Notes under the pieces: model-generated
Database searches by the model: none
Told to the model about the DNA's origin: nothing
What the model saw: only the letters and a program-made list of their open reading frames with translations
Program-made: the position numbers and the translations under genes
In this document: in pieces, positions 4,795 through 63,669 of the stretch
Layout of the letters: the number at the start of each line of letters is the position of its first letter
How positions within the stretch are numbered: the first letter of the stretch is position 1
Assembly: GCA_046116545.1 (NCBI GenBank)
Contig: CP175956.1
Coordinates: 160,276 to 224,275, forward strand
Direction: 5' to 3'
Source of the DNA: Candidatus Moraniibacteriota bacterium
GTDB lineage: Bacteria; Patescibacteriota; Minisyncoccia; Moranbacterales; GCA-2747515
Length of the DNA stretch: 64,000 bases

Positions 4795-5448
4795 TTATTT
4801 ATTCTTCTTGTCGAAAACTTCACCTTTATATACCCATACTTTCACACCAATTGCTCCATATGTTGTACGAGCTACATCTCTAGCAAAATCTATATCTGCT
4901 CTAAGTGTATGAAGTGGTATAGTTCCTTCACTTAACCATTCAACACGACTCATTTCTGCTCCATTCAAACGACCTGATAAAGAAATTTTCATTCCTTGAA
5001 TATTTCTATTTTTAATAGCCTGTTCCAATGTTGTTTTCATAACCCTTCTAAACGGCATTCTTTTTTCTAACTGTTCAGCAACATCCTGAGCAACTAATGC
5101 TGCACTCTCTTCAAACTGCTTAATCTCTCTAATGTCAACTTTCACATCAACTCTTTTTCCCGCAAAAAAATCTTTTTTAATATATGCAATCAAATCTTCA
5201 ATCCCACTACCTCCACGACCTATAATCATTCCAGGTCTAGATGTTTTGATGATGATTTTTACAGCCTTCTCATTTCTTTCAATTTCTACATCAGCAATAG
5301 CTGCATGTCGCCATTTTTTCATAATTGCACGACGAATAACTACATCCTGCTCTAATAACTCGGCATAATTATTTCCACCGAACCAACGAGAGCGCCATGT
5401 CGTTGTTATTCCTAGCCTAAGGCTTTTTGGATTTACTTTATTACCCAT
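4795..5448 (-). CDS. rpsC: 30S ribosomal protein S3
   Basis: MGNKVNPKSLRLGITTTWRSRWF...KH domain...IIGRGGSGIEDL. Confidence 0.92.
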   Translation of the reverse strand: MGNKVNPKSLRLGITTTWRSRWFGGNNYAELLEQDVVIRRAIMKKWRHAAIADVEIERNEKAVKIIIKTSRPGMIIGRGGSGIEDLIAYIKKDFFAGKRVDVKVDIREIKQFEESAALVAQDVAEQLEKRMPFRRVMKTTLEQAIKNRNIQGMKISLSGRLNGAEMSRVEWLSEGTIPLHTLRADIDFARDVARTTYGAIGVKVWVYKGEVFDKKNK

Positions 5449-5459
5449 ATTACAAAATA

Positions 5460-5852
5460 TTATTTAGTATCTTTTTGCGAATTACTCTTTTTTACCTCTT
5501 TTTTTTCAACCTTATCAGTGCCATCTGTCAAAACAATACTCACACGAGATGTTCTTTTCAAGATTTTTGCAGCTCTACCATAAGCTCTTGGTCGCCATCT
5601 TTTCAATGTTGGACCTTCTCCTACAATAATATCTGAAATATACAAATCCTTTTCATTCAACTTAAAGTTATTTTCAGCATTTGCAACAGCGCTTTTTAAC
5701 AATTTCTCCAAAGGCTCTGCAGTCTTACGTAAATCATATTTCATCAATCCGATAGCTTCACTAACTTGAACTCCTCTAACTCTATCAGCTACCAAACGCA
5801 CCTTCCTTGGTGAAATTCGCAAATTATTCAATTGTGCTGTTACTTTTGTCAT
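5460..5852 (-). CDS. rplV: 50S ribosomal protein L22
   Basis: [22 protein letters not shown]...[34 protein letters not shown]. Confidence 0.9.
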   Translation of the reverse strand: [130 protein letters not shown]

Positions 5853-5885
5853 AATTCTTTATTAATAAATCACTTCTTATACTAT

Positions 5886-6170
5886 TTATTTTCCGCTATC
5901 CAAATCCTTCTGCATTTTACCTCCATGTTTTGTAAATTTCCTTGTTGGTGAAAATTCACCTAACTTGTGTCCAACCATTTCATCAGAAATCAAAGCTTCT
6001 ATAAAGTCTTTTCCATTATGTATGGCGAATGTAAATCCAATCATATCTGGTGTAATTGTACAAGCTCTTGACCATGTCTTTATAACTCCTGTCTCTTTTG
6101 GAGTTTTACCCTCAACTTTTTTGATAACTCTCTCATCTACATATAACCCTTTTTTCAGTGATCTACTCAT
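5886..6170 (-). CDS. rpsS: 30S ribosomal protein S19
   Basis: [12 protein letters not shown]...[10 protein letters not shown]...[19 protein letters not shown]. Confidence 0.92.
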
Positions 6171-6182
6171 ATACTTACTATA

Positions 6183-7013
6183 TTATTTCTTATGTCTTGA
6201 TTGAACAATGTACTTACTACTTAATTTCTTTTTTCTTCTAGTACGAACTCCCAAAGCATGCTTACCCCATGGAGTTTTTGGATACTTCAACCCAATTGGT
6301 TGACAACCTTCACCACCTCCATGTGGATGATCTACCGGGTTCATAGCACTACCACGAACAGCAGGCCTCTTACCCATATGTCTTGCTCGTCCAGCCTTAC
6401 CAATCTTTACTGCATTATGTTCAAAATTGCTAACAGCTCCAATGGTTGCGTAACATTCCTTACTTATTAAACGTATTTCACCTGAAGGCATTTTAATTTG
6501 AGCATATTTTTCATCATGACTCATAATCAATGCACTACTTCCAGCACTCCTGATAATCTGTCCGCCTCCACCAACTTTCATTTCTACATTTGAAACTTCA
6601 GTTCCTGAAAGAATATTCTCTAATTTTGTACGATTTCCATCATCTAACGCTACTTTTTCTCCAGAAATAATTTTATCACCAACACGCATCTTCTCAGTTG
6701 CTAATACATATCTTTTTTCACCATCTGCATATACTACCAATGCTATTAAAGCGCTCCTATTTGGATCTTTTTCAATTGAAGTAATTGTTCCTGGTATATC
6801 AAACTTATCTTGTTTGAAATCAACCATTCTGTATAACTTCTTTGCGCCTCTTTGACGATGACGAATTGAAATTTTACCATTACTACGTCCACATTTTTGA
6901 TTCAAAGAAACACAAAGTGACTTTTCAGGCTTTCTATCTGTAACAGCATCAGGCTTCACAATAGACATATTGCGTCTCCCAGCGTTATTTCTTTTGTATA
7001 CTTTAATTGCCAT
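6183..7013 (-). CDS. rplB: 50S ribosomal protein L2
   Basis: MAIKVYKRNNAGRR...GRNNGKISIRHRQRGAKKLYR...PVDHPHGGGEG. Confidence 0.93.
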   Translation of the reverse strand: MAIKVYKRNNAGRRNMSIVKPDAVTDRKPEKSLCVSLNQKCGRSNGKISIRHRQRGAKKLYRMVDFKQDKFDIPGTITSIEKDPNRSALIALVVYADGEKRYVLATEKMRVGDKIISGEKVALDDGNRTKLENILSGTEVSNVEMKVGGGGQIIRSAGSSALIMSHDEKYAQIKMPSGEIRLISKECYATIGAVSNFEHNAVKIGKAGRARHMGKRPAVRGSAMNPVDHPHGGGEGCQPIGLKYPKTPWGKHALGVRTRRKKKLSSKYIVQSRHKK

Positions 7014-7036
7014 AATTCTTATTTATATACTTTTAC

Positions 7037-7438
7037 TTATACTCCTTCAAAAACTGCAATATGTTGTCCCTCTTTTACTGTTACAATTGCTTTTTTATAT
7101 AACTTTTGATAACCTCTATCATATTTTACAGTTCGCCTTTTTGGCTTCACAACTATCATATTCACATTTTCAACATCTACTTTGTACATTTCTTGTACAA
7201 CACGTTTCACATCCTTTTTTGTAGCAGTCTTTTCAACTCGAAATGTGTATTTACCTTCAGAAGCCATTGCATGCGACTTCTCAGTTACTATAGGAGCTAC
7301 AATAGTTCCATAAGCAGATGAGGTTGACGCAACATCTTTTGCAGATGATTTATCTTTCTTCTTAGACGTTTTTTCCACTTTTTTCTCAGTAGAAACACCC
7401 TCTTTTATATCTTCTTTTTTATTACCAAAAATTCCCAT
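7037..7438 (-). CDS. rplW: 50S ribosomal protein L23 with ~40-aa Lys/Ser-rich N-terminal extension
   Basis: Core IVAPIVTEKS...YKVDVENVNMIVVKPKRR matches L23; the preceding ~40 residues are an extension; the start lies 14 nt from the L4 stop. Confidence 0.85.
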   Translation of the reverse strand: MGIFGNKKEDIKEGVSTEKKVEKTSKKKDKSSAKDVASTSSAYGTIVAPIVTEKSHAMASEGKYTFRVEKTATKKDVKRVVQEMYKVDVENVNMIVVKPKRRTVKYDRGYQKLYKKAIVTVKEGQHIAVFEGV

Positions 7439-17123: not shown

Positions 17124-18614
17124 ATGAAACAGACTGAAATTACAATTGATGAAGTTATAAAATCATTCAAAAATCCACCAAATCATGATGGTGAAAAACT
17201 TGTACGTAATGCTTTTGAATTTGCACATAAAGCTCATGGAGATCAGAAACGAGCTAGTGGTATGCCCTACATTCATCACCCATTATCAACTGCAAAAATA
17301 TTAGCAACAATCGGGATGGATGCCCGCACAGTTGCAGCAGGTCTTTTGCATGATGTTCCAGAGGATACTTCAGAAACATTATCTACTATTTCCAAAAAGT
17401 TTGGACCAGATATCTCTCAAATGGTAGAAGGTATAACTAAACTTGGTCGCATCAAATTGCGTGGCACAAAAGAAGAACATAAACTTGAAAATTGGAGAAG
17501 AATGTTTCTTGCTATGGGTGCTGATATTCGAACTGTTATCATCAAACTTGCTGATAGATTGCACAATATGCAAACACTAGAGCATTTGCGTCCAGATAAA
17601 AGAATTCGAATTGCGAATGAAACAATGGAAATATATGTACCTATTGCAAACAGATTAGGAATTGGAGAGATTCGTAGTGAACTTGCTGACTTGTCTTTTA
17701 TGTATTTGCAACCAGAGGAATATAAAAAAGCTAAACTCCTTAGCGAAGAAAAATTAAAAGAAAAAGAATTATATGTCGATAAGGCCATTATTGAAATAGA
17801 GCAATCACTCAAGAATGAAGGAATTCATGCCAAAGATATTCATGGTAGAGCTAAAAATATCCAGAGTCTTCATATGAAATTACAAAAACATGATATGGAT
17901 ATAAATAGAGTTTTTGATTTAATTGCTGTGCGAGTAATTGTCAAAGATGTTGCAGAATGCTATGAGACTCTTGGAATCGTACATAAAAAATACCGTCCAA
18001 TGATAGGACGTATCAAAGATTATATTTCACTACCAAAACCAAATGGATACCAATCAATACACACTACAGTATTCGGACCAGATGGTCGAGTTATGGAAAT
18101 ACAAATAAGAACACAGAAAATGCATGATGAAGCTGAGTTTGGAATTGCAGCTCATTGGCTATATGAAACAAAGAAGAAAAAAGGTTGGCGAAGTTACTTC
18201 CTGCCAAAAGAAACTGAAGTTGATAAAAAAGAAGTTGAGTGGGTTAAACAACTACAAGAATGGCAAGAAGACCTTGGTAATAATCCAGAAGAGTTTATGG
18301 AAGGTCTTAAGGTAGATTTCTTAAAAAATCATATCTTTGCATTTACTCCACTTGGAGATATTATAGAACTACCTGAAGGAGCTAGCGTCATTGATTTCGC
18401 ATATGCGATTCACACTGATGTTGGTCATACAGCAACTGGAGCAAAGATAGATGGTAAAATGTCCTCACTTGATTCTGTTGTGAGAAATGGACAAATTATA
18501 GAAATAATAAAAGATAAAAATAGACCTTCCCCAAATGCAGACTGGCTCAATTTTGTAAAAACTTCTCATGCAAAAAGCGCTATACGACGAGCTGTAAATA
18601 AAGAAAATACATAA
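17124..18614 (+). CDS. Short RelA/SpoT homolog (HD hydrolase, synthetase and TGS domains; lacks C-terminal regulatory domains)
   Basis: HDVPEDT is the HD motif; the synthetase region is RAKNIQSLHMKL...IAVRVIV; the TGS region is FAFTPLGDIIELPEGASVIDFAYAIHTDVGH; only 496 aa. Confidence 0.85.
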   Translation: MKQTEITIDEVIKSFKNPPNHDGEKLVRNAFEFAHKAHGDQKRASGMPYIHHPLSTAKILATIGMDARTVAAGLLHDVPEDTSETLSTISKKFGPDISQMVEGITKLGRIKLRGTKEEHKLENWRRMFLAMGADIRTVIIKLADRLHNMQTLEHLRPDKRIRIANETMEIYVPIANRLGIGEIRSELADLSFMYLQPEEYKKAKLLSEEKLKEKELYVDKAIIEIEQSLKNEGIHAKDIHGRAKNIQSLHMKLQKHDMDINRVFDLIAVRVIVKDVAECYETLGIVHKKYRPMIGRIKDYISLPKPNGYQSIHTTVFGPDGRVMEIQIRTQKMHDEAEFGIAAHWLYETKKKKGWRSYFLPKETEVDKKEVEWVKQLQEWQEDLGNNPEEFMEGLKVDFLKNHIFAFTPLGDIIELPEGASVIDFAYAIHTDVGHTATGAKIDGKMSSLDSVVRNGQIIEIIKDKNRPSPNADWLNFVKTSHAKSAIRRAVNKENT

Positions 18615-34367: not shown

Positions 34368-34748
34368 TTACATCTCCAATTTCCAAAGTCCATGCAAATT
34401 ACAGTATGCATATATTTTAACTTTTTCTACAGTACTTTCAAACATTGCTTCTGGACTATCACCTGGTACTAAAAATACTGTTTTACTCTTATTATCTGTC
34501 ACAAGTGTTATCCATTCTATATAATGTTCCTCACTCATTGGATGCAATACTGCACCTATTTGAACATGAATACCTTCTTCTGTACGATTTACAAACGGTA
34601 CATGCTTTTCTATAGATGCATCCTCTACACCAGCCTCAACTAACACCATAGATTTGCTACAACAAGATAATTCACCACCCGCTGCATGATTAACTGAAAC
34701 AATATTTCCGCATACATTGCATTTATACAATTGATTTCTTTTTGTCAT
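34368..34748 (-). CDS. dfx: Desulfoferrodoxin (2Fe superoxide reductase)
   Basis: YKCNVCGNIVSVNHAAGGELSCC is the desulforedoxin domain; HVPFV...H...CNLHGLWK is the SOR centre. Confidence 0.88.
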   Translation of the reverse strand: MTKRNQLYKCNVCGNIVSVNHAAGGELSCCSKSMVLVEAGVEDASIEKHVPFVNRTEEGIHVQIGAVLHPMSEEHYIEWITLVTDNKSKTVFLVPGDSPEAMFESTVEKVKIYAYCNLHGLWKLEM

Positions 34749-41592: not shown

Positions 41593-42444
41593 ATGAAAAA
41601 AATTATGAAAAAATATTGTTATATTAATGGAAGAATTATAGAAGAAAAAAATGCTTGTATAAGTCCCCATGATCTAGGAGTACTGCGAGGCTATGGTGTA
41701 TTTGATTTTATGTGTACAGCTACTGAAAATAAACCCTTCCTGTTAACTGATCACTGGAATAGACTTGGTAGAAGTGCAAAATCATTAGGACTATTACTCC
41801 CTATTTCAAAAACTGAATATGAAAAAATAATAAATAAATTACTTACAAAAAACGGTTACAAAAATTCTGCAATTCGTACAGTTCTTACTGCTGGTGTCAG
41901 CAATAACGGTATCACGCTTCCCCAAAAACCAACTTTTTATATACTGATTCATAATATAACTAAAATGCTTCCTGAAAAAAAACTATATGAAAATGGTGCA
42001 AAAATAATAACACATGATTTTGCAAGAGATAATTATGCAAGTAAAACAACAAACTACATCGAAGCAATAAAAAATCAAAAAGAAAAAAATCGCCGTGGCG
42101 CAATAGAAATATTATATATAGATAAAAGTAATGTACTTGAATGTACAACTAGTAATATTTTTATTATCAAAAATAATAAACTGATGACACCATCTGAAGG
42201 TATTTTACCCGGAATAACTCGTAAATTAATATTAAAACTTGCTGAGAAAAATAAAATCAATGTTATCAAAGAGAAAATAACTAAAAAACAATTACTGAAT
42301 GCTGATGAAATCTTTTTAACAGGATCGGCTAAACACATTTTACCAATCACAAAAATAGACTCTCAAAAGATTGGTAATGGAAATGTCGGTAAATTAACGA
42401 AAGAAATTTCAACTCTATATTCTGATTATTTCAATAACTATTAA
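41593..42444 (+). CDS. Class IV (D-amino acid/branched-chain) aminotransferase family protein
   Basis: Fold-type IV PLP pattern: GVLRGYGVFDF...EIFLTGSA. Confidence 0.75.
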   Translation: MKKIMKKYCYINGRIIEEKNACISPHDLGVLRGYGVFDFMCTATENKPFLLTDHWNRLGRSAKSLGLLLPISKTEYEKIINKLLTKNGYKNSAIRTVLTAGVSNNGITLPQKPTFYILIHNITKMLPEKKLYENGAKIITHDFARDNYASKTTNYIEAIKNQKEKNRRGAIEILYIDKSNVLECTTSNIFIIKNNKLMTPSEGILPGITRKLILKLAEKNKINVIKEKITKKQLLNADEIFLTGSAKHILPITKIDSQKIGNGNVGKLTKEISTLYSDYFNNY

Positions 42445-42969: not shown

Positions 42970-43875
42970 CTATTTACATATACTAAACCACTCCTTTGTA
43001 TCTATACTATTTTCTGAAATAACCTCAGAGAATATGTCTTTTAATTCTTTCACACTTTTTGTATCAAATAGTATTTCCTGACCATCCTCTAAAACTATTT
43101 TTTTGATAGGTGTTATTTCAGAAGCAGTTCCTGTAAAAAAAGCTCCTTTAAATTTCTTTATATCCTTTGGAAATATCTCTATTTCACTAATTTCATAATT
43201 CAAATCTATACCTAACTCAATAACAGACTGTCTTGTTATACCTGCTAAGATCTTTCCTTTACGTGGAGTTATAATTTTTTTACCATCAACAAAAAATATA
43301 TTAGCTACAGATCCTTCTGCTATTGCGCCGTTATGATCCAATAGCAATGGCTCATCAAAGTTATTTTTCTTTGCGTCAGCAGATGCCATAAATGAATTAA
43401 TATAATGACCAGAAATTTTTGCATCACAGACAGTGCTTTTTTCTGATATTCTGGCAAATGGGGATATTTTGACATTTACCTCATCAGCTAAATATTTTGG
43501 CCAAGGAAATGCAGTTATGAAAATATTTGTTTTATTCATACCAATCCTCATGCCGAGTGCAGAGTCGTCAAAATAAATAAGTGGTCGTATGTACGCCGAT
43601 TCTAAATTATTTTTTTGCATTAAAACTTTACAAATTTCATTAATTTCATCCTTAGTTTCACTAATTTCTAATCCCAATTTATCAGCAGAATAAAATAATC
43701 TATTAGTATGCTCCTGCAATCTAAATATACCTGTTCCTTTTTTTATTTTATAAGCTCTAATTCCTTCAAAAACACCTGTTCCATAATGAAGTCCATGCGT
43801 CATAGGTGAGATATTAGCATCTTCTAATTTTAAATATTCACCATTTAAATAAACTATTAATTTTTTATCAAACAT
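42970..43875 (-). CDS. ilvE: Branched-chain-amino-acid aminotransferase-like (class IV)
   Basis: LNGEYLKLEDANISPMTHGLHYGTGVFEGIRAY. Confidence 0.8.
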   Translation of the reverse strand: MFDKKLIVYLNGEYLKLEDANISPMTHGLHYGTGVFEGIRAYKIKKGTGIFRLQEHTNRLFYSADKLGLEISETKDEINEICKVLMQKNNLESAYIRPLIYFDDSALGMRIGMNKTNIFITAFPWPKYLADEVNVKISPFARISEKSTVCDAKISGHYINSFMASADAKKNNFDEPLLLDHNGAIAEGSVANIFFVDGKKIITPRKGKILAGITRQSVIELGIDLNYEISEIEIFPKDIKKFKGAFFTGTASEITPIKKIVLEDGQEILFDTKSVKELKDIFSEVISENSIDTKEWFSICK

Positions 43876-43880
43876 ATTTA

Positions 43881-44678
43881 TTATCTAACAATATTATAAC
43901 TACCTAAAATTGTAACATCTACAAAAGTATTTAGAAATTCAAAAGCGTCTTTCATGTTTTCATCTTCCATGCATCCATCCAAATCCAAATAAAAAATATA
44001 ATCATTCATTTTTTCGCCTGTCGGAATTGATTCTATCTTTGTAAGGTTTAGATTCTTTATTTTAAAAACAGAAAGTATTTCAAATAAAAGACCTGATCTA
44101 TCCGTAGTTGGTTTTATAATTACAGAAGTTTTTTCTCCACTTGTTTTTTTAACTTTTTTAGATATTTCTATAAATCTAGTTACATTTTTATCTTTATTAC
44201 TTATATTTTGCTCTATTACACTTAATTTGTAATAATTTGCCGCATCATTACTGCCTATTGCTGCAATAGATGCATCGGCTGATGCTATTTCCATTGCTTT
44301 TGATGTTGAAGATGCTTCAATGACACTAATCCCCTGCTTACGCATTTCATCAACATATTCATTACATTGCACAAGTGCTTGTGCATGTGACATTATAGTT
44401 GTAAATTCATCTCCTTGAGAAGCTAATACATGCTCTATAGAATAATCAAAAGCATTTACTATACTTACCTCATTTTGCTGCAATGCCAAAAATGTTTCTC
44501 GCACAGAACCATTTATCATATTTTCTATAGGCACTATCCCATGACTAGTGTCTGATAAATTATCAAATACTGCACTTATTGTATCAACTGGTTCAATATC
44601 TAATTTTTCATAATTTACCAGTGCTACATTATAAGAATAACTAAATTTTGGACCAAGTGTAATTATTTTATCTATCAT
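43881..44678 (-). CDS. pheA: Prephenate dehydratase
   Basis: PDT domain plus C-terminal ACT domain (ESIPTGEK...YIFYLDLDG). Confidence 0.8.
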   Translation of the reverse strand: MIDKIITLGPKFSYSYNVALVNYEKLDIEPVDTISAVFDNLSDTSHGIVPIENMINGSVRETFLALQQNEVSIVNAFDYSIEHVLASQGDEFTTIMSHAQALVQCNEYVDEMRKQGISVIEASSTSKAMEIASADASIAAIGSNDAANYYKLSVIEQNISNKDKNVTRFIEISKKVKKTSGEKTSVIIKPTTDRSGLLFEILSVFKIKNLNLTKIESIPTGEKMNDYIFYLDLDGCMEDENMKDAFEFLNTFVDVTILGSYNIVR

Positions 44679-45505
44679 GATAATGTTTTTATTAATTTAT
44701 CTGTAATTTCCATTGAGCGCGTTGCCATATTTCCAAAATATTTTTTACTCTTACTGAAAATTTTATTAAACTTATTTTCATCAGATATATCAACTGATTG
44801 AAATAGCTCATCTACTGACTCTTTATATTTTATTGCAACCTCTTTTGCAAATGGATTATACATTTGCATATCAGTATAAAGATCTGCATCCTGTGCCAAT
44901 ATTCTACCAACTCCATACAATCTCATCAAATATACAGGAGTAGCTATTGATTCACCCACCTCTAAATTATAATGTAATTTTTCAAGAGTTGATCCAAGTG
45001 ATAATGCTGAAAAATGAGTAAGACATTGAATCACTGCCATATTTTTATCATGTTCTTCTTTTGTCATCTCCAAAACATTCAACCCAAGTGATTTCAAAAA
45101 ATTAATATACCAATCAGTATAACTTCCACCTTGCTCATTACAAATAATAAAGTTTTGTTTTTTGAAATCTGTTGTTGGACCAAATAATGGATGTCCTCCT
45201 ATGATTTCAATATCATCCCTTACTTCCTGTATCATTGCATCCATTGGCTTTATTTTAACAGATGTAAAATCTGTAACCATACTTCCCTTTTTCACAACTG
45301 GCATTATACTTTTAATAACTGCTTCAGTATCTCTAATCGGTACAGTAACTATTATAACATCACCGATTCTAGCAACTTCTTCATTTGTTAATTTAGTATC
45401 AGCATCCGCAATCAAAACTTCAAAGCCTCGCTTATGAAACTCATGGGCAAATTTACTACCCATTTTCCCATTACCTCCTATAATTGATATAATTTTTGGT
45501 TTCAT
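44675..45505 (-). CDS. tyrA: Prephenate dehydrogenase
   Basis: KIISIIGGNGKMGSKFA Rossmann motif; the 4-nt ATGA overlap with pheA points to an operon. Confidence 0.8.
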   Translation of the reverse strand: MKPKIISIIGGNGKMGSKFAHEFHKRGFEVLIADADTKLTNEEVARIGDVIIVTVPIRDTEAVIKSIMPVVKKGSMVTDFTSVKIKPMDAMIQEVRDDIEIIGGHPLFGPTTDFKKQNFIICNEQGGSYTDWYINFLKSLGLNVLEMTKEEHDKNMAVIQCLTHFSALSLGSTLEKLHYNLEVGESIATPVYLMRLYGVGRILAQDADLYTDMQMYNPFAKEVAIKYKESVDELFQSVDISDENKFNKIFSKSKKYFGNMATRSMEITDKLIKTLS

Positions 45506-45537
45506 ATTTTTTACTTTTTTATCTAAAATTTTAAATT

Positions 45538-45576
45538 ATTTATCATACGAGCAACATTGTGCTCGTATGATAAATT
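45538..45576 (-). terminator. Strong rho-independent terminator after the small acidic protein gene
   Basis: 15-bp stem TTTATCATACGAGCA-ACATTG-TGCTCGTATGATAAA. Confidence 0.8.
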
Positions 45577-45586
45577 TATGTTTATA

Positions 45587-45739
45587 CTACCAATGACCAG
45601 TAATGCCGGATTTTTCCTTGAGCGTTTCTGGTTCGGGACCAAATCCAGCATCGTCTGACACATTTTCTTCACGATTTTCAACATCAACACTTAACTCAAT
45701 ACTTCTTTCATCTTTTTCTTCTACTTTACTGTCTGACAT
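45587..45739 (-). CDS. Small acidic protein (50 aa), unknown family
   Basis: Not in the ORF track (<60 aa). AGGAGA SD lies 6 nt before the ATG; MSDSKVEEKDERSIELSVDVENREENVSDDAGFGPEPETLKEKSGITGHW; flanked by the leader element and a terminator. Confidence 0.65.
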   Translation of the reverse strand: MSDSKVEEKDERSIELSVDVENREENVSDDAGFGPEPETLKEKSGITGHW

Positions 45740-45763
45740 TTTTAATCTCCTATTTTGTATAAT

Positions 45764-45860
45764 ATAAACAAAAAACCCATCTCACTATTGAGATCGGCTT
45801 ACTTTTGCTAACAATACTATCTTATCTACATCACATTACGAGCAAAAACAAACTGATCTC
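45764..45860 (-). promoter_or_regulatory. Conserved ~97-nt 5'-leader RNA element, copy 1 (terminator/antiterminator; candidate riboswitch or attenuator)
   Basis: About 97% identical to 46651..46747; contains the hairpin CCGATCTCA-ATAG-TGAGATGGG plus a U-tract 37 nt upstream of the start codon; the 5' GAGATC can pair with the terminator's 5' arm. Confidence 0.7.
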
Positions 45861-45954
45861 TTTTAATAAAGAAACCTATAAACCAAAAATACCAATATTG
45901 ATTTGTTGTTACTTGTTTTTGCATTTCACAAAAATAATATTTAACATATTTATA

Positions 45955-45982
45955 ATTATACATACCAAATTTATTTTGTCAA
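45955..45982 (-). promoter_or_regulatory. Sigma70-type promoter TTGACA-N16-TATAAT driving the leader and small acidic protein gene
   Basis: Minus strand: TTGACAAAATAAATTTGGTATGTATAAT. Confidence 0.7.
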
Positions 45983-46024
45983 AAAAATAAATCCCACCAA
46001 TCTATCAATGTAGATTGGTGGGAT
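45983..46024 (-). terminator. Rho-independent terminator after the 84-aa gene
   Basis: TCCCACCAATCTA-CATTGA-TAGATTGGTGGGA followed by TTTATTTTTTT. Confidence 0.85.
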
Positions 46025-46031
46025 AACTGTT

Positions 46032-46286
46032 TTATAACAACATTACTTTTTCATGAACTGTGCTACATCTTTGATTAACTATCAAAACACAAGAAGCAAA
46101 GGGACATTTTTTACCCTCAATTTTTTCTAAACAAAACGCACTACCAGCCAAGACAATATCACACTTCAATCCTGTCTGAATAGCCCTAGGTCTACTTACG
46201 GTACATTTTTTACCAGCCAAATTCTGACCTGCTAATCCTTCTGCTCTTAAAACTTGTTTTTCACCTACTGCTCCTGCTCCAGCCAT
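46032..46286 (-). CDS. Small Cys-containing protein (84 aa), unknown family, with two GKKC motifs
   Basis: GAGGAG SD; MAGAGAVGEKQVLRAEGLAGQNLAGKKCTVS...EGKKCPFASC; second gene downstream of leader copy 2. Confidence 0.65.
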   Translation of the reverse strand: MAGAGAVGEKQVLRAEGLAGQNLAGKKCTVSRPRAIQTGLKCDIVLAGSAFCLEKIEGKKCPFASCVLIVNQRCSTVHEKVMLL

Positions 46287-46312
46287 TTTAAGCTCCTCTT
46301 TTTTTAAAAAAC

Positions 46313-46621
46313 TTACATTTTAATTGGTGAATCATAATCTTCAAATGGAAATGCCTCAGTACACTCAACGCCTTTAATGATATTTACATTGCCATTAGCA
46401 TTAAAAGCAATGTAAACAGCGTCTCCAAAACATTTCTTAGCTCCAATACATCTATGTTGCAGAGCTTTTCGTGAACCTGTAATTCCAATTGCAGTAATAG
46501 TATCGCCATAATTAGTAACAGAATCAGTAACACATACAACTTGCGCTTCATCATCACTAAGTTGCTGTACGCTATTATTATCCATAATCTTATTTTTAAC
46601 AACATTAGGAATGCACATCAT
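46313..46621 (-). CDS. Small Cys-containing protein (103 aa from the second in-frame ATG), unknown family, with a GAKKC motif
   Basis: AAGGAGAAA SD directly before ATGATG (the track ORF starts 27 nt upstream at 46648); first gene downstream of leader copy 2. Confidence 0.65.
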   Translation of the reverse strand: MMCIPNVVKNKIMDNNSVQQLSDDEAQVVCVTDSVTNYGDTITAIGITGSRKALQHRCIGAKKCFGDAVYIAFNANGNVNIIKGVECTEAFPFEDYDSPIKM

Positions 46622-46650
46622 TTTCTCCTTTTTTTTAAGTAACTGCATTT

Positions 46651-46747
46651 ATAAAACAAAAACCCATCTCACTATTGAGACCGGCTTACTTTTGCTAACA
46701 ATATTATCTTATCTACATCACATTACGAGCAAAAACAAACTGATCTC
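46651..46747 (-). promoter_or_regulatory. Conserved ~97-nt 5'-leader RNA element, copy 2
   Basis: Same element as 45764..45860; hairpin CCGGTCTCA-ATAG-TGAGATGGG plus a U-tract 42 nt upstream of the ATG; a TGTATAAT box lies upstream at about 46775-46790. Confidence 0.7.
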
Positions 46748-46928
46748 TCTGACTAATCAGCAGGACCAACAACAAAATCATTTCCAGAATGTTTGTTATT
46801 TGTTTACTCACAAATTCAATATTATTGATTAACAATTTGATTATACAAAATCATAATATTTTGTCAAATCATTATATGTTGTAATGCACTGGAATTTTTT
46901 AAAATTACTTGATATAATATATCTACAT

Positions 46929-48230
46929 ATGAATAAAAAAAATACATACAAAAATATTTCAAACTTACTCGCAATTTTAACTATTTGTCTATCTTTTTTA
47001 GTATTACAAAATTCATTGCTAGTATTTGCAGCTGATGATGTAGATGAAGAAGAAAAAGAAGAAATACTTGATGATAAAGAAGATGAATTAGAAAAATTAG
47101 AAAAGAAAGAAAAAAAGTACCGTGATATCATAAATTTAAAACAAAAAGAACAAGATATCATAAATGCTCAAATTAGAAAATTAGAAAATGAAAATTCAAA
47201 AATAAAAGATACGATTGAAGATAATGAAAGTGATATAGAAGAACTATCTCAAGAAATCTCAAGAACGAAAAGTGAAATTGAGCAAAAAGAAAATCACATT
47301 TCTATTCAAAAAAAGATCCTTCGACAATTTATACGTGAGAAATATCAAAATTATTCAGAAGATTCTAAACATTTTGCACTATTGAATGTTGCTAATAAAT
47401 ATAATAATTCACATAGAGACAATATTTCATATGCAACTGAAAAAGTTGGTGAATTTGTAAAAACAATACACACTGAACAACAATCTTTGCAAAAAGATAG
47501 AGAAGAATTTGAAGAAAAATCTAAAAAAATTGAGGACGAAAAATATAAACTTGAACAACGTAGTGAGTATCTCAATAGTTCAAAAGACTACAAAAGAGTT
47601 CTTGCTAGTCAAGTAAATGTTGAAGAAGATAAATATCAGACAAAATTATCAAAAGTTTTAGAAAAACAACGGAATATACAACAAGAATTAGATGAGCTAC
47701 GTATTGGTAATATTTCAAAATTAGACCTAAGTTCATTACCTGATAGAAAGCATGGCTTATTTGCATATCCTGTGAAAAAAGTATTCATTACACAAAACTA
47801 CGGAAACACAGCTTTTGCTAATAGCTCAACTTTTTATAATTTTCATACAGGTGTAGATTTTGGGGTATCAGCTGGAACATCTGTTTACTCAGTTGCAAAA
47901 GGTAAAGTTGTTGATACTAATTTCACAGACTACGCTTATGGTGGATGGGTTGCAATTGAACATGAACTTGATGATAAAAAAATTATAACTTTCTATGGAC
48001 ACTTAAGTAAATTGTCAGTGAAAAAGGGTGAGAAAGTGAAAAAGGGTGAGAAAATAGGTAATTCAGGAGGTATTCCAGGAACACCTGGATCTGGAAATAC
48101 AACTGGAGCACATTTACATTTTGGCGCATATCAAGCAAAAGGTTTTTATATAAAATATTCAAAATACAGCAGCAATGTTAAATTACCACCTGATGGACTT
48201 GATATAAATCCATCATGGTACCTTCCATAG
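46929..48230 (+). CDS. EnvC-like coiled-coil M23 (LytM) metallopeptidase
   Basis: Signal peptide MNKKNTYKNISNLLAILTICLSFLVL; long coiled-coil; HTGVDFGVSAGTSVYSVAKGKV...GHLS...GNSG...TGAHLHFG. The track ORF starts at 46884. Confidence 0.8.
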   Translation: MNKKNTYKNISNLLAILTICLSFLVLQNSLLVFAADDVDEEEKEEILDDKEDELEKLEKKEKKYRDIINLKQKEQDIINAQIRKLENENSKIKDTIEDNESDIEELSQEISRTKSEIEQKENHISIQKKILRQFIREKYQNYSEDSKHFALLNVANKYNNSHRDNISYATEKVGEFVKTIHTEQQSLQKDREEFEEKSKKIEDEKYKLEQRSEYLNSSKDYKRVLASQVNVEEDKYQTKLSKVLEKQRNIQQELDELRIGNISKLDLSSLPDRKHGLFAYPVKKVFITQNYGNTAFANSSTFYNFHTGVDFGVSAGTSVYSVAKGKVVDTNFTDYAYGGWVAIEHELDDKKIITFYGHLSKLSVKKGEKVKKGEKIGNSGGIPGTPGSGNTTGAHLHFGAYQAKGFYIKYSKYSSNVKLPPDGLDINPSWYLP

Positions 48231-58944: not shown

Positions 58945-61900
58945 CTATCTCATCTTTATATCGCCTTTTAATTTTATATCTCCTTTCAATTTCACTTGTC
59001 GAGGATCTGATATTGTAGTTACTGTTGTAGTAAAATTTGTTTCATTCCCATATCCTGTTCCTCCACTATTTATTGCTTTTGCTCTTATGAAATATGTTGT
59101 ATTTGGAGATAGTCCTACTAGTACACATGAATAAGTTCCTTCTGAATCAATTCCTGCACTACATTCGTTTGTATATGTTCCACTTATAATTCCCCATTCC
59201 ATAAATCTTTGTGGATTTTCAGATCCATCATCTATCACATTTCCATTTCCTGTTGCTGTTGTTGAATTTATGGATGTTGTATTTTGTGTTGATATAGTTG
59301 GTGCACTCAGCGGACAGTCAAGTCCTGCATCATTTATTGTCCAGCTATATGTTGATATGATATTTGATCGCTCTGTTGCACTATTACAATAATTTGCTGA
59401 TGAATCTAGTTGCACATTATTTTGAAGTGTTTGTGATTCCCATCCTATTAGTGTGGCATCATAGATTGTTGTTGAGAGTCCTGAATTTACAAACATCCCA
59501 AGCATATCAGTAACACTTCCTATTTGCCATGAGCCCATATTTTGATTAAATGCGGATGCACCATAAAACACATATGACATATTTGTAACAGATGATGTAT
59601 CCCATGAACTTAGATTTTGATTAAATGCATCTGTAAAAGAAAATAATTCAGACATATTTATCACACTACCTACATCCCAAGAGCTTATGTCTTGATTAAA
59701 TACGTCTGCATTAGTAAACATCCTATTCATATTTGTTACACTATTTACATCCCAAGAACCTATATTTTGATCAAATGCTCCTGCATTAGAAAACATCTCA
59801 TACATGCTTGTAACATTGCTTATATCCCAAGAACTTATATCTTGATTGAACATATTAGTACCTGTAAATAGTCTATCCATATTTATTACATTACTCGTGT
59901 TCCAAGAGCTTATGTCTTGATTAAATGAATTTGCACCATAAAACATTCCTGATATATCTGTAACATTACTTATATCCCAAGAGCTTATGTCTTGGTTGAA
60001 TGTATTAGTAATTGCAAACATGTGTGACATGTTTATTACTGATGAAGTATCCCATAAACTTATATCTCCATTAAATGCTGGTGTATAGTAAAACATATAT
60101 GACATATTTGTAACAGAGGATGTATTCCAAGAACTTAAATTACCGTTAAACGAAAATGCTTCTCTAAAAGCTTCCCACAATGACGTCACCGAAGATAGAT
60201 CAGGAGTATCTGTAAAAGTACCTATCATATTAATACATCCTAAAAAAGACCTTTCCATCGAAGTCCAAATTCCTATTCCCCATTGATTGATATCTAAAAG
60301 CTTTTCTCTATCTCCTGTGTTATTGAAGTAAATTCTAGGAAATCCAGTTTTTAATCCTGTATTATCTTTTATTCTTATAGTATAAGTTCCTGCAGCTCCA
60401 TAGTTACATGTATAATTTCCTGTTTGAGCTGTTGCGTCATCTGAACCATCATTATCACAATCTATATTATAGTTATAGCCGCCTCCTGTTGTTGGTATAG
60501 TAAATTGTGTATCTGATGAGCTTCCTGTGTTATCTGTTTTTACTGTTATTACAAAATCATTTTCTGGTGGTGTTGAACAATCCAACCCGGCATCGTTTAT
60601 CGTCCAACTATATGTTGATATAATATTAGCTCTTTCTGTTGCACTATTACAATAATTTGCTGATGAACCTAGAGTTACTCCATTTTGTAATACTTGTGAT
60701 TCCCAACCTATTAATGTTGCATCATAATTTGCTGTTGATAAATTTGTCGACAAAAATATATTTGTCATATTTGTTACATTGGCAACATTCCAGGTACTTA
60801 AATCTTGATTAAATGATGTTGAACGAAATACATTACTCATATCCATCACAGATGAAGTATCCCAAGAACTAACATTTCCATCAAATGCAGATACAACAAA
60901 CATGCTATTCATATCTGTTATAGATGAGGTATTCCAAAGACTTAGATTTTGATTAAAATTAGGTGCATTATAAAACATATACCTTGTACTCGTTACACTT
61001 GATGTGTCCCAAGAACTTATATCTCGATTAAATACAGATGTTCCATAAAACATACCACTCATATTTGTTACATTTGATGTGTCCCATGAGTTTACATCCC
61101 CATTAAATACTATTGCATTCCAAAACATAGAATTCATATCCGTTACTAACGACGTATTCCAGGAATCTAAGTCTTGATTAAATACAGAGTTATCAAAAAA
61201 CATATAACTCATATTAGTTACATTTGATGTATCCCATAAACCTATATCTTGATTAAAGATGGATGACATACCCGAAAACATCTGACTCATATTGGTTACA
61301 TTTGATGTGTCCCATGAAGTTATATCTTGATTAAATGAACTAGCATGTCTAAACATAGCCCTCATATCTGTTACTGCTGATATATCCAATGTACTTATAT
61401 CTTGATTAAATAAATCTGTATAGCTAAACATGGAGCTCATATCAGTTACTGCTGCAGTATTCCACGCAATTATATTATAATTAAATGCGTCTGCACCATA
61501 AAACATACTTGCCATATTTGTTACATTTGATGTGTCCCATGAAGTTATATCTTGATTAAATGCGATTGTGTCTGCAAACATGACGGACATATTTGTAACT
61601 GCAGATGTGTCCCAAGAACTTATATCTTGATTGAAAACTGGAGCATATCTAAACATATTATTCATATTGGTTACATTTGATGTGTCCCATGAAGTTATAT
61701 CTTGATTAAATGAAGTAGCTTCATAAAACATGTAACTCATATTTGTTATTGAAGACATATCCCAGTTATTTATATCCTGATTGAAAGAGTCTGTACCTCT
61801 AAACATTTGTGATAAATCCGTCACATTCGAAAGATTAGGTATATCTATAAAATTACCAACCATGTTGTTACACCCTGTAAAAGCTCTAAACATTGATATC

Positions 61901-63669
61901 CAAATTCCTGTTCCCCATTGATCTATTGATAAAAGTTTTTCTTTATCTCCTGCATCACTAAAATAAATCCTAGGAAATCCAGTACTAGCTCCTGAGTTAT
62001 CTTTTATTCTTACAGTATAAGTTCCTGCACTTCCGTAATTACATGTATAGTTCCCGGTTTGTCCTGTTGCCTCATCGCTTCCATCATTATCACAATCCAC
62101 ATTGTAATCATAGCCTACTCCAAATGTTGGTATTGTAAATTGTGTATCTGATGAGCTTCCTGTGTTATCTGTTTTTACTGTTATTACAAAATCATCTGTA
62201 GCTAGTGCTGGCATTACACATTGTTGATCTACTATTCCTCCGCTACTTATACTTCCACCGATTGAAATTGTTCCACCGCTGCCTAAACTTCCACCGTTTG
62301 AAATTGTTCCACCGTTTGAAATTGTTCCACCGCTGCCTAACTGAGGATTTGCACAACCTGTTGCAAAAGTTCCATCTGATTGAAGTTTTACTATATACAT
62401 ATCAAAACCACCTACGCCACCAGCATTTGTATATCCTGCAATTACATACCCCCCATCTAAAGTTTGAACTGCTGAATATGCTACTTCAGCATCAGCTCCA
62501 CCAATAGTCCTTGTTCCTCCTGAGCCAAATGTTGCATCTAATGCTCCTGTGCTTGTAAGTTTTGTTATATACATATCATAACTACCTGCACCAAAAGAAG
62601 TTGTATATCCTGCGATTACATATCCTCCATCTGAAGATTGAACTACCGAGTATGCATACTCGGTACCAGTGCCACCAATAGTTCTTGTTCCACCTGAACC
62701 AAATGTTGCATCTAATGCTCCTGTGCTTGTAAGTTTTGTTATATACATATCATAACCACCTGCACCAAAAGAATCTGTGATTCCTGCAATTACATATCCT
62801 CCATCTGAAGTTTGTATTATAGAAATTCCTGAATCAAAACCAGTGCCACCAATAGTTCTTGTTCCACCTGAACCAAATGTTGCATCTAATGCTCCTGTGC
62901 TTGTAAGTTTTGTTATATACATATCATAACCACCTGCACCAAAAGAACTTGTATATCCTACAATCATATACCCGCCATCTGAAACTTGTATTACAGAACT
63001 TGCTGAATCAGAACCTGTGCCACCAATAGTTCTTGTTCCTCCTGAGCCAAATGTTGTATCTAATGCTCCCGTACTTGTAAGTTTTGTTATATACATATCA
63101 TAACCACCTGCACCAAAAGAACTTGTATATCCTACAATCATATACCCGCCATCTGAAACTTGTATCACAGAACTTGCTAAATCAGAACCTGTCCCACCAA
63201 TAGTTTTTGTTCCTCCTGAGCCAAATGTTGTATCCAATGCTCCCGTGCTTGTAAGTTTTGCTATATACATATTACCGATACCATCACCAAAAGAACTTGT
63301 AAATCCTGCAATTATATACCCTCCATCTGAAGTTTGAGCTGCTGAATATGCATATTCAGCATCAGCTCCACCAATAGTTCTTGTTCCTCCTGAGCCAAAT
63401 GTTGTATCCAATGCTCCCGTGCTTGTGAGTTTTGTTATATACATATCATAACCACCTGCACCAAAAGAGTCTGTTCTTCCTACAACTACATGCCCACCAT
63501 CTGAAGATTCTATTACAAAAGATGCTAATTCAGCATCGGCTCCACCAATAGTCTGTGCAATAAACTCACCTGCCGCAGATACTTTTTGTGTTATAAAAAA
63601 GCTTAAAAATATCATCACCAAAAAAGATGCCGTTTTTTTATATAAATGCTTTTTGAAAAGATTATTCAT
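58945..63669 (-). CDS. Giant secreted/surface protein (1574 aa): delta-60 beta-propeller repeats, two tandem DUF285/BspA-type repeat modules, FN3
   Basis: Signal peptide; about 8 repeats of [12 protein letters not shown]...[31 protein letters not shown] (delta-60-like); Gly-rich linker; two modules each with an Ig-like prelude ([21 protein letters not shown]...DCDNDG) plus about 20 [20 protein letters not shown] repeats; C-terminal FN3-like domain. Confidence 0.85.
59290..62215. repeat. Nucleotide-level tandem duplication (~1.63-kb unit, two copies) inside the giant gene
   Basis: For example, 60340-60570 versus 61975-62205 are nearly identical, including a perfect 60-nt stretch gtaaattgtgtatctgatgagcttcctgtgttatctgtttttactgttattacaaaatcat. 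Confidence 0.8.
62380..63565. repeat. About 175-bp tandem repeats (delta-60 blade coding units) with long near-identical stretches
   Basis: Recurring ccaccaatagttcttgttcctcctgagccaaatgttg(c/t)atc(t/c)aatgctcc(t/c)gtgcttgtaagttttgttatatacatatcataac. Confidence 0.8.

What the first reader, a model, noticed from the sequence alone, without database searches (positions are those of the whole stretch)
45587..46621. Co-regulated family of unannotatable small proteins with recurring G(A)KKC motifs
The leader elements control a 50-aa highly acidic protein ending GITGHW, and a two-gene operon encoding a 103-aa and an 84-aa protein. All have good SDs and dedicated terminators. The 103-aa protein carries IGAKKCFG; the 84-aa protein carries AGKKCTVS and EGKKCPFASC, together with a GAGAVGEKQVL stretch. 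I cannot assign any of them to a known family. The shared cis-element implies a common physiological signal. The Cys spacing suggests metal or redox chemistry, and desulfoferrodoxin sits 11 kb away in the same strand block.
Basis: partly seen in the sequence, partly recalled or inferred. Interest (0 to 1): 0.6.

Follow-up and report, generated by a model that had tools for sequence, protein, structure and literature searches.

The report
Amino-acid attenuators controlling orphan small proteins
The three small genes are real but lineage-restricted. The "shared leader" in front of them is a classical ribosome-stalling attenuator present in two versions, one tuned to aromatic amino acids and one to leucine, so this is a familiar mechanism in an unusual bacterium (a Candidate Phyla Radiation lineage), not a new metal or redox protein family.

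Summary
The window comes from a Candidatus Moraniibacteriota (CPR) genome. The three ORFs exist as described, but the G(A)KKC motif is not conserved in their homologues.

Each ~95-nt "leader element" carries a 32-codon leader ORF, an anti-antiterminator, an antiterminator and a terminator with a U-run.
- Leader 1 encodes MQKQVTTNQYWYFWFIGFF… (8 aromatic codons of 11). It precedes the 50-aa ORF, which has no terminator of its own and heads the tyrA-pheA-aminotransferase operon.
- Leader 2 encodes (V)SKQITNILEMILLLVLLIS… It has six Leu positions conserved in four genomes with synonymous codon changes, and it precedes the 102-aa and 84-aa genes.

So the two transcription units probably read different signals (Phe/Tyr/Trp versus Leu), not one common signal.

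The 102-aa protein belongs to a family of about 10 members, all in this clade and always beside the Phe/Tyr operon. In some genomes it is the last gene of that operon. Its AlphaFold model is confident (pLDDT 87), a ββαββα sandwich with no significant PDB match and no Pfam match.

Only the C-terminal 45 residues of the 84-aa protein (four invariant Cys) are shared by all four homologues, and a short N-terminal motif by one. Biochemical function remains unknown. The link to desulfoferrodoxin is unsupported.

The parts
46840..46867 (-). Promoter of the Leu-type leader (TTGACA, 16-nt spacer, TATAAT; 12/12 match)
46713..46811 (-). Leu-type leader ORF with a GTG start, 32 codons: (V)SKQITNILEMILLLVLLISQRDQFVFARNVM*. 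The control codons lie at 46755-46790. The stop codon lies in the apical loop of the antiterminator.
   Evidence: The GTG start and six Leu positions are conserved in L004, L108 and L109, with synonymous codon changes.
46656..46753 (-). Leader 2 RNA core: antiterminator hairpin (about 46680-46752) overlapping the terminator stem (46663-46684) and U-run (46653-46662)
   Evidence: covariance-model hit of 108.9 bits
46313..46621 (-). Gene for the 101/102-aa protein, a clade-restricted family with a predicted ββαββα fold, an invariant C57-x-G-A, and a conserved C-terminal Y-x-S-P-I tail
46032..46286 (-). Gene for the 84-aa protein. The N-terminal MAGAGxxGEKQVL motif is shared with L108. A variable linker follows, then a conserved C-terminal domain of about 45 aa with four invariant Cys (C-x9-C-x8-C-x12-C).
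45991..46024 (-). Intrinsic terminator of the 102-aa/84-aa operon (14-bp stem followed by a U-run)
45955..45982 (-). Promoter of the aromatic-type leader (12/12 consensus match)
45826..45924 (-). Aromatic-type leader ORF with an ATG start, 32 codons: MQKQVTTNQYWYFWFIGFFIKRDQFVFARNVM*. The control codons lie at 45868-45897.
   Evidence: Homologous aromatic runs occur in L004, L006, L007, L010, L016, L022, L026 and L108.
45769..45866 (-). Leader 1 RNA core: antiterminator overlapping the terminator stem (45776-45797) and U-run (45770-45775)
   Evidence: covariance-model hit of 111.2 bits
45587..45739 (-). 50-aa ORF, the first ORF of the Phe/Tyr operon. Only the motifs D-A-G-F/W and the C-terminal G-x-W-stop are conserved.
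45538..45575 (-). Conserved 12-16-bp hairpin between the 50-aa ORF and tyrA. It has no U-run on the coding strand, so it is not a canonical terminator.
   Evidence: Equivalent hairpins appear in L004, L006, L010, L016, L022 and L108.
42970..45505 (-). tyrA (prephenate dehydrogenase, 44675-45505), pheA (prephenate dehydratase + ACT, 43881-44678) and a class IV aminotransferase (42970-43875). These are the cargo of the aromatic leader.

Best explanation
The locus holds two paralogous ribosome-mediated (leader-peptide) transcription attenuators in a Candidatus Moraniibacteriota genome.

Anatomy of each leader:
- a consensus promoter;
- a leader ORF of about 32 codons;
- region 1, the first codons (AUGCAAAAACAAG), which can pair with region 2 (UUUGUUUUUGC);
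- region 2, which alternatively pairs with region 3 to form a long antiterminator hairpin;
- region 3, whose 3' end alternatively pairs with region 4 to form an intrinsic terminator with a U-run.

Proposed mechanism (inferred, not shown):
- A ribosome that stalls on the control codons just 5' of region 2 leaves region 2 free. The antiterminator forms and transcription reads through.
- A ribosome that reaches the stop codon, which lies in the antiterminator's apical loop, covers region 2. The terminator forms.
- With no translation at all, the 1:2 pairing also favours termination.

What each leader controls:
- Leader 1 carries a Tyr/Trp/Phe codon run. It controls a conserved small ORF (the 50-aa protein) followed by tyrA, pheA and an aminotransferase.
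- Leader 2 carries a Leu/Ile codon run. It controls the 102-aa and 84-aa proteins.

The small proteins are therefore predicted to be induced by amino-acid limitation: leucine for the pair, aromatic amino acids for the 50-aa ORF.

The 102-aa protein is a soluble α/β protein restricted to this clade and genetically tied to the terminal Phe/Tyr pathway. Most likely it is an accessory or regulatory partner rather than a core enzyme (inferred, low confidence). The 84-aa protein is its lineage-specific partner and may bind metal through four Cys (speculative).
For: Organism: the NCBI names of identical proteins give Candidatus Moraniibacteriota.

Leader anatomy:
- Both promoters match the consensus 12/12.
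- In-frame leader ORFs are present in 14 distinct leader copies from about 9 related genomes.
- Eight of 11 codons are aromatic in leader 1 (P about 4e-7 against window composition). Six of 13 are Leu in leader 2 (P about 2e-4), and three of those use CTG, which makes up 3% of Leu codons in the window.

Selection on codon identity:
- The six Leu positions are kept in four genomes (window, L004, L108, L109) with synonymous changes among CTG, TTG, CTC, TTA, CTT and CTA. The cargo proteins of those genomes are only 28-49% identical.
- In L010 a 1-nt indel shifts the frame after the control codons. The aromatic run stays in frame with the ATG while the peptide's C-terminus changes. Selection therefore acts on the RNA and the control codons, not on the peptide tail.

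RNA structure:
- The 10 leader copies folded individually all show a terminator with a U-run, an antiterminator of -15 to -26 kcal/mol, and a 1:2 pairing.
- The antiterminator is 96.5% paired across 12 sequences.
- Terminator stems differ in sequence but keep their pairing.

Operon context:
- tyrA, pheA and the aminotransferase lie directly downstream of leader 1 and the 50-aa ORF.
- There is no terminator or promoter between the 50-aa ORF and tyrA.

The 102-aa family:
- An exhaustive HMMER search found about 8 homologues.
- Every homologue with recoverable context sits next to tyrA-pheA-aminotransferase. In L006-L011 it is the last gene of that operon.
- The AlphaFold model has pLDDT 87.
Against: - There is no experimental evidence of any kind.
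- The leader ORFs lack clear Shine-Dalgarno sites, while the cargo genes have strong ones.
- Covariation in the antiterminator is weak. Only 2 pairs change on both sides, which is not beyond the shuffle controls, because the stem is almost invariant. That invariance would also fit a binding site for a protein or a ligand.
- A Leu-codon attenuator in front of genes with no recognisable role in leucine metabolism is atypical.
- In L022 the homologous leader has a mixed Ile/Leu/Phe/Trp run and controls different genes.
- L016 and L022 have the Phe/Tyr operon without a 102-aa gene at the locus. The protein is therefore not an obligatory pathway component.
Confidence: 0.7

Rival explanations
1. One reading: the three small proteins form a co-regulated family of Cys-based metal or redox proteins. 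They are defined by G(A)KKC motifs, respond to one common signal, and are perhaps linked to oxidative-stress defence (desulfoferrodoxin).
For: - KKC occurs 3 times in these 186 aa, against once in 16.6 kaa elsewhere in the window.
- The 84-aa protein has four Cys that are invariant in 4 homologues.
- The 102-aa family has one invariant Cys.
- Both units carry the same leader backbone.
Against: - KKC is not conserved in homologues.
- There are no CxxC pairs and no hits to metalloprotein families.
- The three proteins show no detectable sequence similarity to one another (each region of the concatenated query found separate hits).
- The control codons differ between the leaders.
- Desulfoferrodoxin sits in a different gene block, among KH-domain, RNase T-like, ASCH and radical-SAM genes.
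- The genomic association is with Phe/Tyr biosynthesis.
Confidence: 0.1
2. The leader is a riboswitch or a protein-binding attenuator RNA. It would sense a metabolite or regulator directly, and the overlapping small ORFs would be incidental.
For: - GUUUGUUUUUGCUYGUAAU and AUAUUGUUAGCAAAA are nearly invariant across genomes whose proteins are 30-50% identical.
- There is little covariation.
- The leader ORFs have no obvious SD.
Against: - No Rfam family matches, even at E<=10.
- The variable segment is exactly the one that keeps amino-acid class (aromatic or Leu) with synonymous changes.
- The start codon is conserved: ATG in all aromatic-type copies and GTG in all four Leu-type copies.
- The apical loop, where a ligand pocket might lie, varies in length and sequence.
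- The invariance is explained by a triple constraint. Region 2 must pair with both region 1 and region 3, and region 1 also encodes the start of the peptide.
Confidence: 0.12
3. The 102-aa protein is a missing enzyme of the pathway, for example a non-orthologous chorismate mutase. It would supply prephenate to TyrA and PheA, which here lack fused mutase domains.
For: - tyrA (PDH only) and pheA (PDT + ACT only) have no chorismate mutase domain.
- The 102-aa gene is co-operonic with them in L006-L011.
- Its size is similar to known small mutases (own knowledge).
Against: - No CM_1 or CM_2 Pfam match for any of the 8 members.
- In four genomes it is under a Leu-codon leader, not an aromatic one.
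- L016 and L022 have the operon without it.
Confidence: 0.06
4. The leader ORFs encode functional hydrophobic micro-peptides (membrane peptides or type I toxin-like) rather than regulatory codon runs.
For: Both peptides have a polar N-terminus followed by a hydrophobic stretch of 11-13 residues.
Against: - The stretch is too short for a membrane helix.
- The composition switches cleanly between aromatic and Leu/Ile according to the operon.
- The peptide C-terminus is not maintained in L010.
- The ORF is embedded in a terminator/antiterminator switch.
Confidence: 0.04

Closest known systems
pheL-pheA leader-peptide attenuator of Gammaproteobacteria (Rfam Phe_leader; PMC3082878)
   Same: A short leader ORF with a run of aromatic (Phe) codons sits upstream of pheA. 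A terminator and an antiterminator are mutually exclusive, and translation of the leader decides read-through.
   Different: - No sequence or covariance-model similarity.
- The run mixes Tyr, Trp and Phe codons.
- The stop codon lies inside the antiterminator loop.
- Region 1 includes the start codon.
- A further conserved small ORF plus a hairpin lies between the attenuator and tyrA.
- The host is a CPR bacterium. A full-text search for leader peptide, attenuation and Candidate Phyla Radiation together returned no paper.
leu operon leader (leuL; Rfam Leu_leader) and the Lactococcus leu/phe leader motif
   Same: A run of Leu codons, including rare ones, lies in a short ORF in front of a terminator.
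   Different: The cargo is not leuABCD or any recognisable branched-chain amino-acid gene. It is two orphan small proteins. There is no Rfam match.
Attenuators of amino-acid operons predicted by comparative genomics in Actinobacteria (PMC1262725)
   Same: The logic of identification is the same: leader ORFs with regulatory codon runs and alternative hairpins, outside Proteobacteria.
   Different: The phylum and sequence family differ. Here two paralogous copies sit side by side with swapped codon specificity.
Small ACT-type protein PheB encoded next to pheA in Bacillus (own knowledge; a lead only, not tested)
   Same: A small soluble protein of unclear role is genetically coupled to pheA.
   Different: No sequence or fold similarity was found. 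The predicted topology is ββαββα, not the βαββαβ of ACT domains.

Membership tests
Leader-peptide (ribosome-mediated) transcription attenuator | Short translatable ORF in the 5' leader with a conserved start codon | tested here: met
   The start is ATG in all aromatic-type copies and GTG in all four Leu-type copies. The ORFs are 28-33 codons long. A clear SD is missing.
Leader-peptide (ribosome-mediated) transcription attenuator | Run of codons for the amino acid(s) made by the controlled operon | tested here: met
   For leader 1: 8 of 11 codons are Tyr, Trp or Phe upstream of tyrA-pheA. For leader 2 a Leu run is present and conserved, but how the cargo relates to Leu is unknown.
Leader-peptide (ribosome-mediated) transcription attenuator | Intrinsic terminator between the leader ORF and the first structural gene | tested here: met
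   The 10 leader copies folded individually all have a hairpin plus a U-run of at least 5.
Leader-peptide (ribosome-mediated) transcription attenuator | Mutually exclusive antiterminator, plus an upstream 1:2 pairing, placed so that ribosome position selects the fold | tested here: met
   RNAfold and RNAalifold structures and 96.5% pairing. This is computational only, and covariation is weak.
Leader-peptide (ribosome-mediated) transcription attenuator | Read-through depends on translation and on the supply of charged tRNA | not testable with these tools
   Needs reporter assays, in vitro assays or Term-seq.
Rfam Phe_leader / Leu_leader / leu-phe leader / T-box / any Rfam family | Covariance-model match | tested here: not met
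   No such match at the gathering threshold in the window, or at E<=10 in 45400-47000. The only weak hit, PyrG_leader at 34.9 bits against a threshold of 65, is the terminator of the 84-aa gene.
Chorismate mutase (AroQ or AroH) | CM_1 or CM_2 sequence profile, or an AroQ helical or AroH trimeric α/β fold | tested here: not met
Cys-based metalloproteins (rubredoxin/desulfoferrodoxin-like, zinc ribbons) | Paired CxxC-type ligand motifs, or a profile match | tested here: not met
   No CxxC pairs and no Pfam or NCBIfam hit. The four invariant Cys are spaced x9/x8/x12, so an unconventional metal site is still possible. The AF2 model of the 84-aa protein is unusable (pLDDT 45).
HypC/HupF (considered because of the N-terminal MC) | N-terminal Met-Cys and the HypC profile | tested here: not met
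   No Pfam hit. The N-terminal Cys is absent from all homologues.
Phage or anti-phage defence proteins | PHROG or PADLOC profile match | tested here: not met

The most novel reading that the evidence does not exclude
In these reduced CPR genomes, leader-peptide attenuators may have been duplicated and re-coded (aromatic to Leu) to act as general sensors of charged-tRNA supply. They would switch on non-biosynthetic, lineage-specific proteins. The 102-aa ββαββα protein, with its four-Cys partner, would be a new-fold regulator or enzyme that adjusts the terminal aromatic and branched-chain amino-acid (keto-acid transamination) pathway during starvation.
Probability: 0.12. Interest if true: 0.7.

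Novelty: new member of a known kind. Interest (0 to 1): 0.42.

Why it matters
- CPR bacteria are thought to have minimal biosynthesis and regulation. A clean, conserved pair of leader-peptide attenuators here shows that classical translation-coupled control operates in this radiation. One controls a Phe/Tyr terminal pathway. The other, re-coded for leucine, controls orphan proteins.
- The locus is a natural example of an attenuator changing specificity after duplication.
- It gives a testable handle on two orphan protein families: induction by Leu limitation.
- It turns an "unannotatable Cys-motif family" into a concrete hypothesis linked to amino-acid supply.

Tried and rejected
- Rfam scans found nothing. 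This covers the gathering-threshold scan of the whole window and the scan at E<=10 of the locus.
- Pfam, NCBIfam, PHROGs and PADLOC gave no hit for the three proteins.
- Word-indexed homology searches returned only self hits. An exhaustive phmmer run on the three proteins concatenated was needed to find relatives.
- PDB sequence-profile searches found nothing significant for the 102-aa family (best E=1.2) and nothing for the 84-aa family.
- AF2 on the 84-aa protein with 3 sequences gave pLDDT 45, so no fold search was attempted.
- Ideas considered and dropped:
  - HypC-like N-terminus. The Cys is not conserved.
  - AroH-like "GLKKC" resemblance. This was memory only, and the fold does not match.
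  - TRAP-like repeated UAG triplets in the loop. The loop is not conserved.
  - T-box. No match.
- The 370-aa protein behind the homologous leader in L022 is unrelated to the 102-aa family.
- Most of the 96 loci returned by the two 19-nt pattern scans were chance matches. The regex and the covariance model kept only loci of the Moraniibacteriota type.
Full report
**What is at the coordinates.**

All the genes lie on the minus strand:
- a 101/102-aa ORF at 46313-46621;
- an 84-aa ORF at 46032-46286;
- a 50-aa ORF at 45587-45739.

Exact-sequence look-ups place them in a Candidatus Moraniibacteriota MAG, a Candidate Phyla Radiation lineage, with a 1.29-Mb contig. There they are annotated as hypothetical proteins ACKUBY_01075, 01080 and 01085.

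No Pfam, NCBIfam, PHROG or PADLOC family matches them.

Two direct repeats of about 107 nt, 93% identical, precede the 50-aa ORF and the 102-aa ORF. A covariance model built later finds only these two copies in the 64 kb.

**Are the ORFs conserved?**

Word-based searches of 5.8 billion proteins returned only self hits. I then ran an exhaustive phmmer search with the three proteins concatenated.

- **The 102-aa protein.** It has about eight relatives of 99-107 aa at 28-49% identity. A profile search and hhalign added two more.
- **The 84-aa protein.**
  - Two of its homologues are only 55 and 58 aa long and cover just its C-terminal half.
  - A full-length 84-aa homologue in L108 also shares the N-terminal MAGAGxxGEKQVL motif.
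  - Four Cys are invariant, spaced x9/x8/x12.
- **The 50-aa protein.**
  - It has no detectable sequence homologue.
  - A positional equivalent exists in eight related genomes. It keeps only D-A-G-F/W and a C-terminal G-x-W-stop.

**The G(A)KKC motif.**

Within this genome the motif is statistically odd. KKC occurs three times in 186 aa, against once in 16,597 aa elsewhere. It is not conserved in homologues:
- In the 102-aa family only the G-A is invariant, together with C57 two residues upstream.
- AGKKC lies in the variable linker of the 84-aa protein.
- In EGKKCPF only K..C.F is kept.

The motif does not define a family.

**Genomic context.**

Directly downstream of the 50-aa ORF are three genes:
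- prephenate dehydrogenase (tyrA);
- prephenate dehydratase with an ACT domain (pheA);
- a class IV aminotransferase.

The hairpin after the 50-aa ORF has no U-run on the coding strand, and no promoter follows it. The 50-aa ORF is therefore the first ORF of the Phe/Tyr operon, not a stand-alone gene.

Every homologue of the 102-aa protein with recoverable context lies beside this same operon:
- In L004, L108 and L109 the arrangement matches the window: a divergent M23 peptidase, then leader, 102-aa gene, Cys-rich gene, leader, small ORF and tyrA-pheA-aminotransferase. L109 ends before the second leader.
- In L006-L011 the 102-aa gene is the last gene of the tyrA-pheA-aminotransferase operon, and there is no Cys-rich partner.
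- L016 and L022 have the operon without a 102-aa gene at the locus.

Desulfoferrodoxin at 34368-34748 sits in a different block, among unrelated genes.

**What the leader elements are.**

Read on the minus strand, each leader starts with a perfect TTGACA-16-TATAAT promoter. About 25-30 nt further on is a 32-codon ORF:
- Leader 1: MQKQVTTNQYWYFWFIGFFIKRDQFVFARNVM*
- Leader 2: (V)SKQITNILEMILLLVLLISQRDQFVFARNVM*

Collecting related leaders:
- I gathered leader copies from the protein-derived loci.
- I ran one 19-nt pattern scan each of the genome and metagenome collections.
- I filtered the results with a regex and covariance model R1.
- This gave 14 distinct leader copies from about nine genomes.

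All copies upstream of the small ORF and tyrA/pheA carry a Tyr/Trp/Phe run, for example NWYFLFLFIG, NNWYYFWFYF and RYYYFWF.

All four copies upstream of the 102-aa gene carry N-I-L-x-I-x-L-L-L-x-L-L:
- The six Leu positions are conserved.
- Their codons vary synonymously among CTG, TTG, CTC, TTA, CTT and CTA.
- In the window three of the six are CTG, which is 3% of Leu codons here.

Against window composition, 8 aromatic codons of 11 has P about 4e-7, and 6 Leu of 13 has P about 2e-4.

In L010 a 1-nt indel after the control codons changes the downstream frame. The aromatic run stays in frame with the ATG, while the peptide tail changes from FVFACN.. to PVCFCL. The conserved 3' part is therefore selected as RNA, and the variable 5' part as codons.

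**RNA architecture.**

I folded 10 leader copies individually. All show the following:
- a hairpin plus U-run terminator (regions 3:4);
- a long antiterminator of -15 to -26 kcal/mol (regions 2:3), whose 3' arm overlaps the terminator's 5' arm;
- a pairing of the first codons (AUGCAAAAACAAG) with the antiterminator's 5' arm (UUUGUUUUUGC) (regions 1:2).

The stop codon lies in the antiterminator's apical loop, which varies in sequence and length. The antiterminator is 96.5% paired over 12 sequences. Only two pairs show changes on both sides, which is not beyond the shuffle controls. The terminator stems differ more between genomes while keeping their pairing.

The near-invariance of region 2 is what a triple constraint would produce. 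It must pair with both region 1 and region 3, and region 1 also encodes the start of the peptide.

No Rfam family matches, including Phe_leader, Leu_leader and T-box.

**Most likely mechanism (inferred).**

This is classical ribosome-mediated attenuation, as described for pheL-pheA (PMC3082878) and for other phyla (PMC1262725):
- Stalling at the control codons just 5' of region 2 allows 2:3 to form, and transcription reads through.
- Unhindered translation to the stop codon covers region 2, 3:4 forms, and transcription terminates.
- Without translation, 1:2 likewise leaves 3:4 free to form.

Leader 1 would report Phe/Tyr(/Trp)-tRNA charging and leader 2 Leu(/Ile)-tRNA charging. The two units therefore probably do not share one signal.

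Weak points:
- The leader ORFs have no clear SD.
- Covariation is weak.
- There is no experiment.
- The Leu-controlled genes have no known role in Leu metabolism.
- In L022 a homologous leader with a mixed Ile/Leu/Phe/Trp run precedes a 370-aa orphan gene and an FGase-family gene instead.

**The proteins.**

- **102-aa protein.**
  - With the 8-sequence alignment, AlphaFold2 gives a confident model (pLDDT 87, pTM 0.77).
  - The fold is two short helices, then ββαββα, with a disordered tail that is nevertheless conserved in sequence (Y-x-S-P-I-x-x).
  - Foldseek finds nothing below E 0.2.
  - PDB and Pfam profile searches find nothing significant.
  - It is not an AroQ or AroH chorismate mutase, an ACT domain or a PCD by these tests.
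- **84-aa protein.** Its model is unusable (pLDDT 45).

My best reading, at low confidence:
- The 102-aa protein is an accessory or regulatory partner of the terminal aromatic (and perhaps branched-chain) amino-acid pathway.
- It is induced by amino-acid limitation.
- The four-Cys protein is a lineage-specific partner that may bind a metal.

**Verdict.**

The ORFs, the motifs and the shared leader are real, and the proteins cannot be annotated by homology.
- The KKC motif is not conserved.
- The common cis-element is a known kind of device, a leader-peptide attenuator, present in two codon specificities.
- The 50-aa ORF belongs to the tyrA-pheA operon.
- The desulfoferrodoxin link is unsupported.

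What is new is modest but real:
- an attenuator family absent from Rfam, in a CPR lineage;
- duplication of that attenuator with re-coding from aromatic to leucine codons;
- two clade-restricted small-protein families placed under amino-acid-limitation control.

Noticed in passing
L102 (Ga0164318_10315564), 545-945: This is a chimeric leader. The Leu-type 5' half is fused to the aromatic-type 3' half and is followed directly by the 51-aa ORF and tyrA. The 101-aa and 55-aa genes are missing. The cause is either recombination between the two ~95-nt leader repeats or assembly collapse.
   Followed up: partly
L022 (JALVPE010000002.1) 5045-7287: In another Moraniibacteriota genome the slot of the 102-aa/84-aa pair is occupied differently. 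A homologous leader (MNKQIINIFSMILWFRLLIV…) is followed by a 370-aa orphan protein and an N-formylglutamate-amidohydrolase-family gene.
   Followed up: partly
window 45538-45739 (-) and equivalents in L004, L006, L010, L016, L022, L026, L108: The small ORF before tyrA always ends in G-x-W-stop and carries D-A-G-F/W. In most of these loci a 12-16-bp hairpin follows 13-27 nt later. The hairpin has no U-run, and tyrA itself has no SD. This may be a second regulatory or translational-coupling device. It remains unexplained.
   Followed up: partly
L016 (CAZHQB010000006.1, labelled uncultured Micavibrio): This contig has the Moraniibacteriota-type synteny: M23 peptidase, aromatic leader, small ORF and hairpin. 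It lacks tyrA, however, so pheA follows directly. The taxonomic label may reflect mis-binning.
   Followed up: no
window 46884-48230 (+): A divergently transcribed M23 peptidase with a coiled-coil N-terminal region is the conserved upstream neighbour of the leader in the loci where the upstream flank was recovered (window, L004, L006, L016, L022, L108, L109).
   Followed up: no
window 58945-63669 (-): A 1574-aa protein is made of DUF285 and DUF5122 repeats. The underlying DNA repeats have periods of 75 nt and 174 nt.
   Followed up: no
window 17124-18614 (+): A RelA/SpoT homologue (HD + RelA_SpoT + TGS domains) is present. The organism therefore also appears to have a stringent-response enzyme alongside the attenuators.
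   Followed up: no
window 41593-42444 (+) and 42970-43875 (-): Two class IV (branched-chain-type) aminotransferase genes flank a metallophosphoesterase gene next to the Phe/Tyr operon. This arrangement is conserved in the related loci.
   Followed up: no
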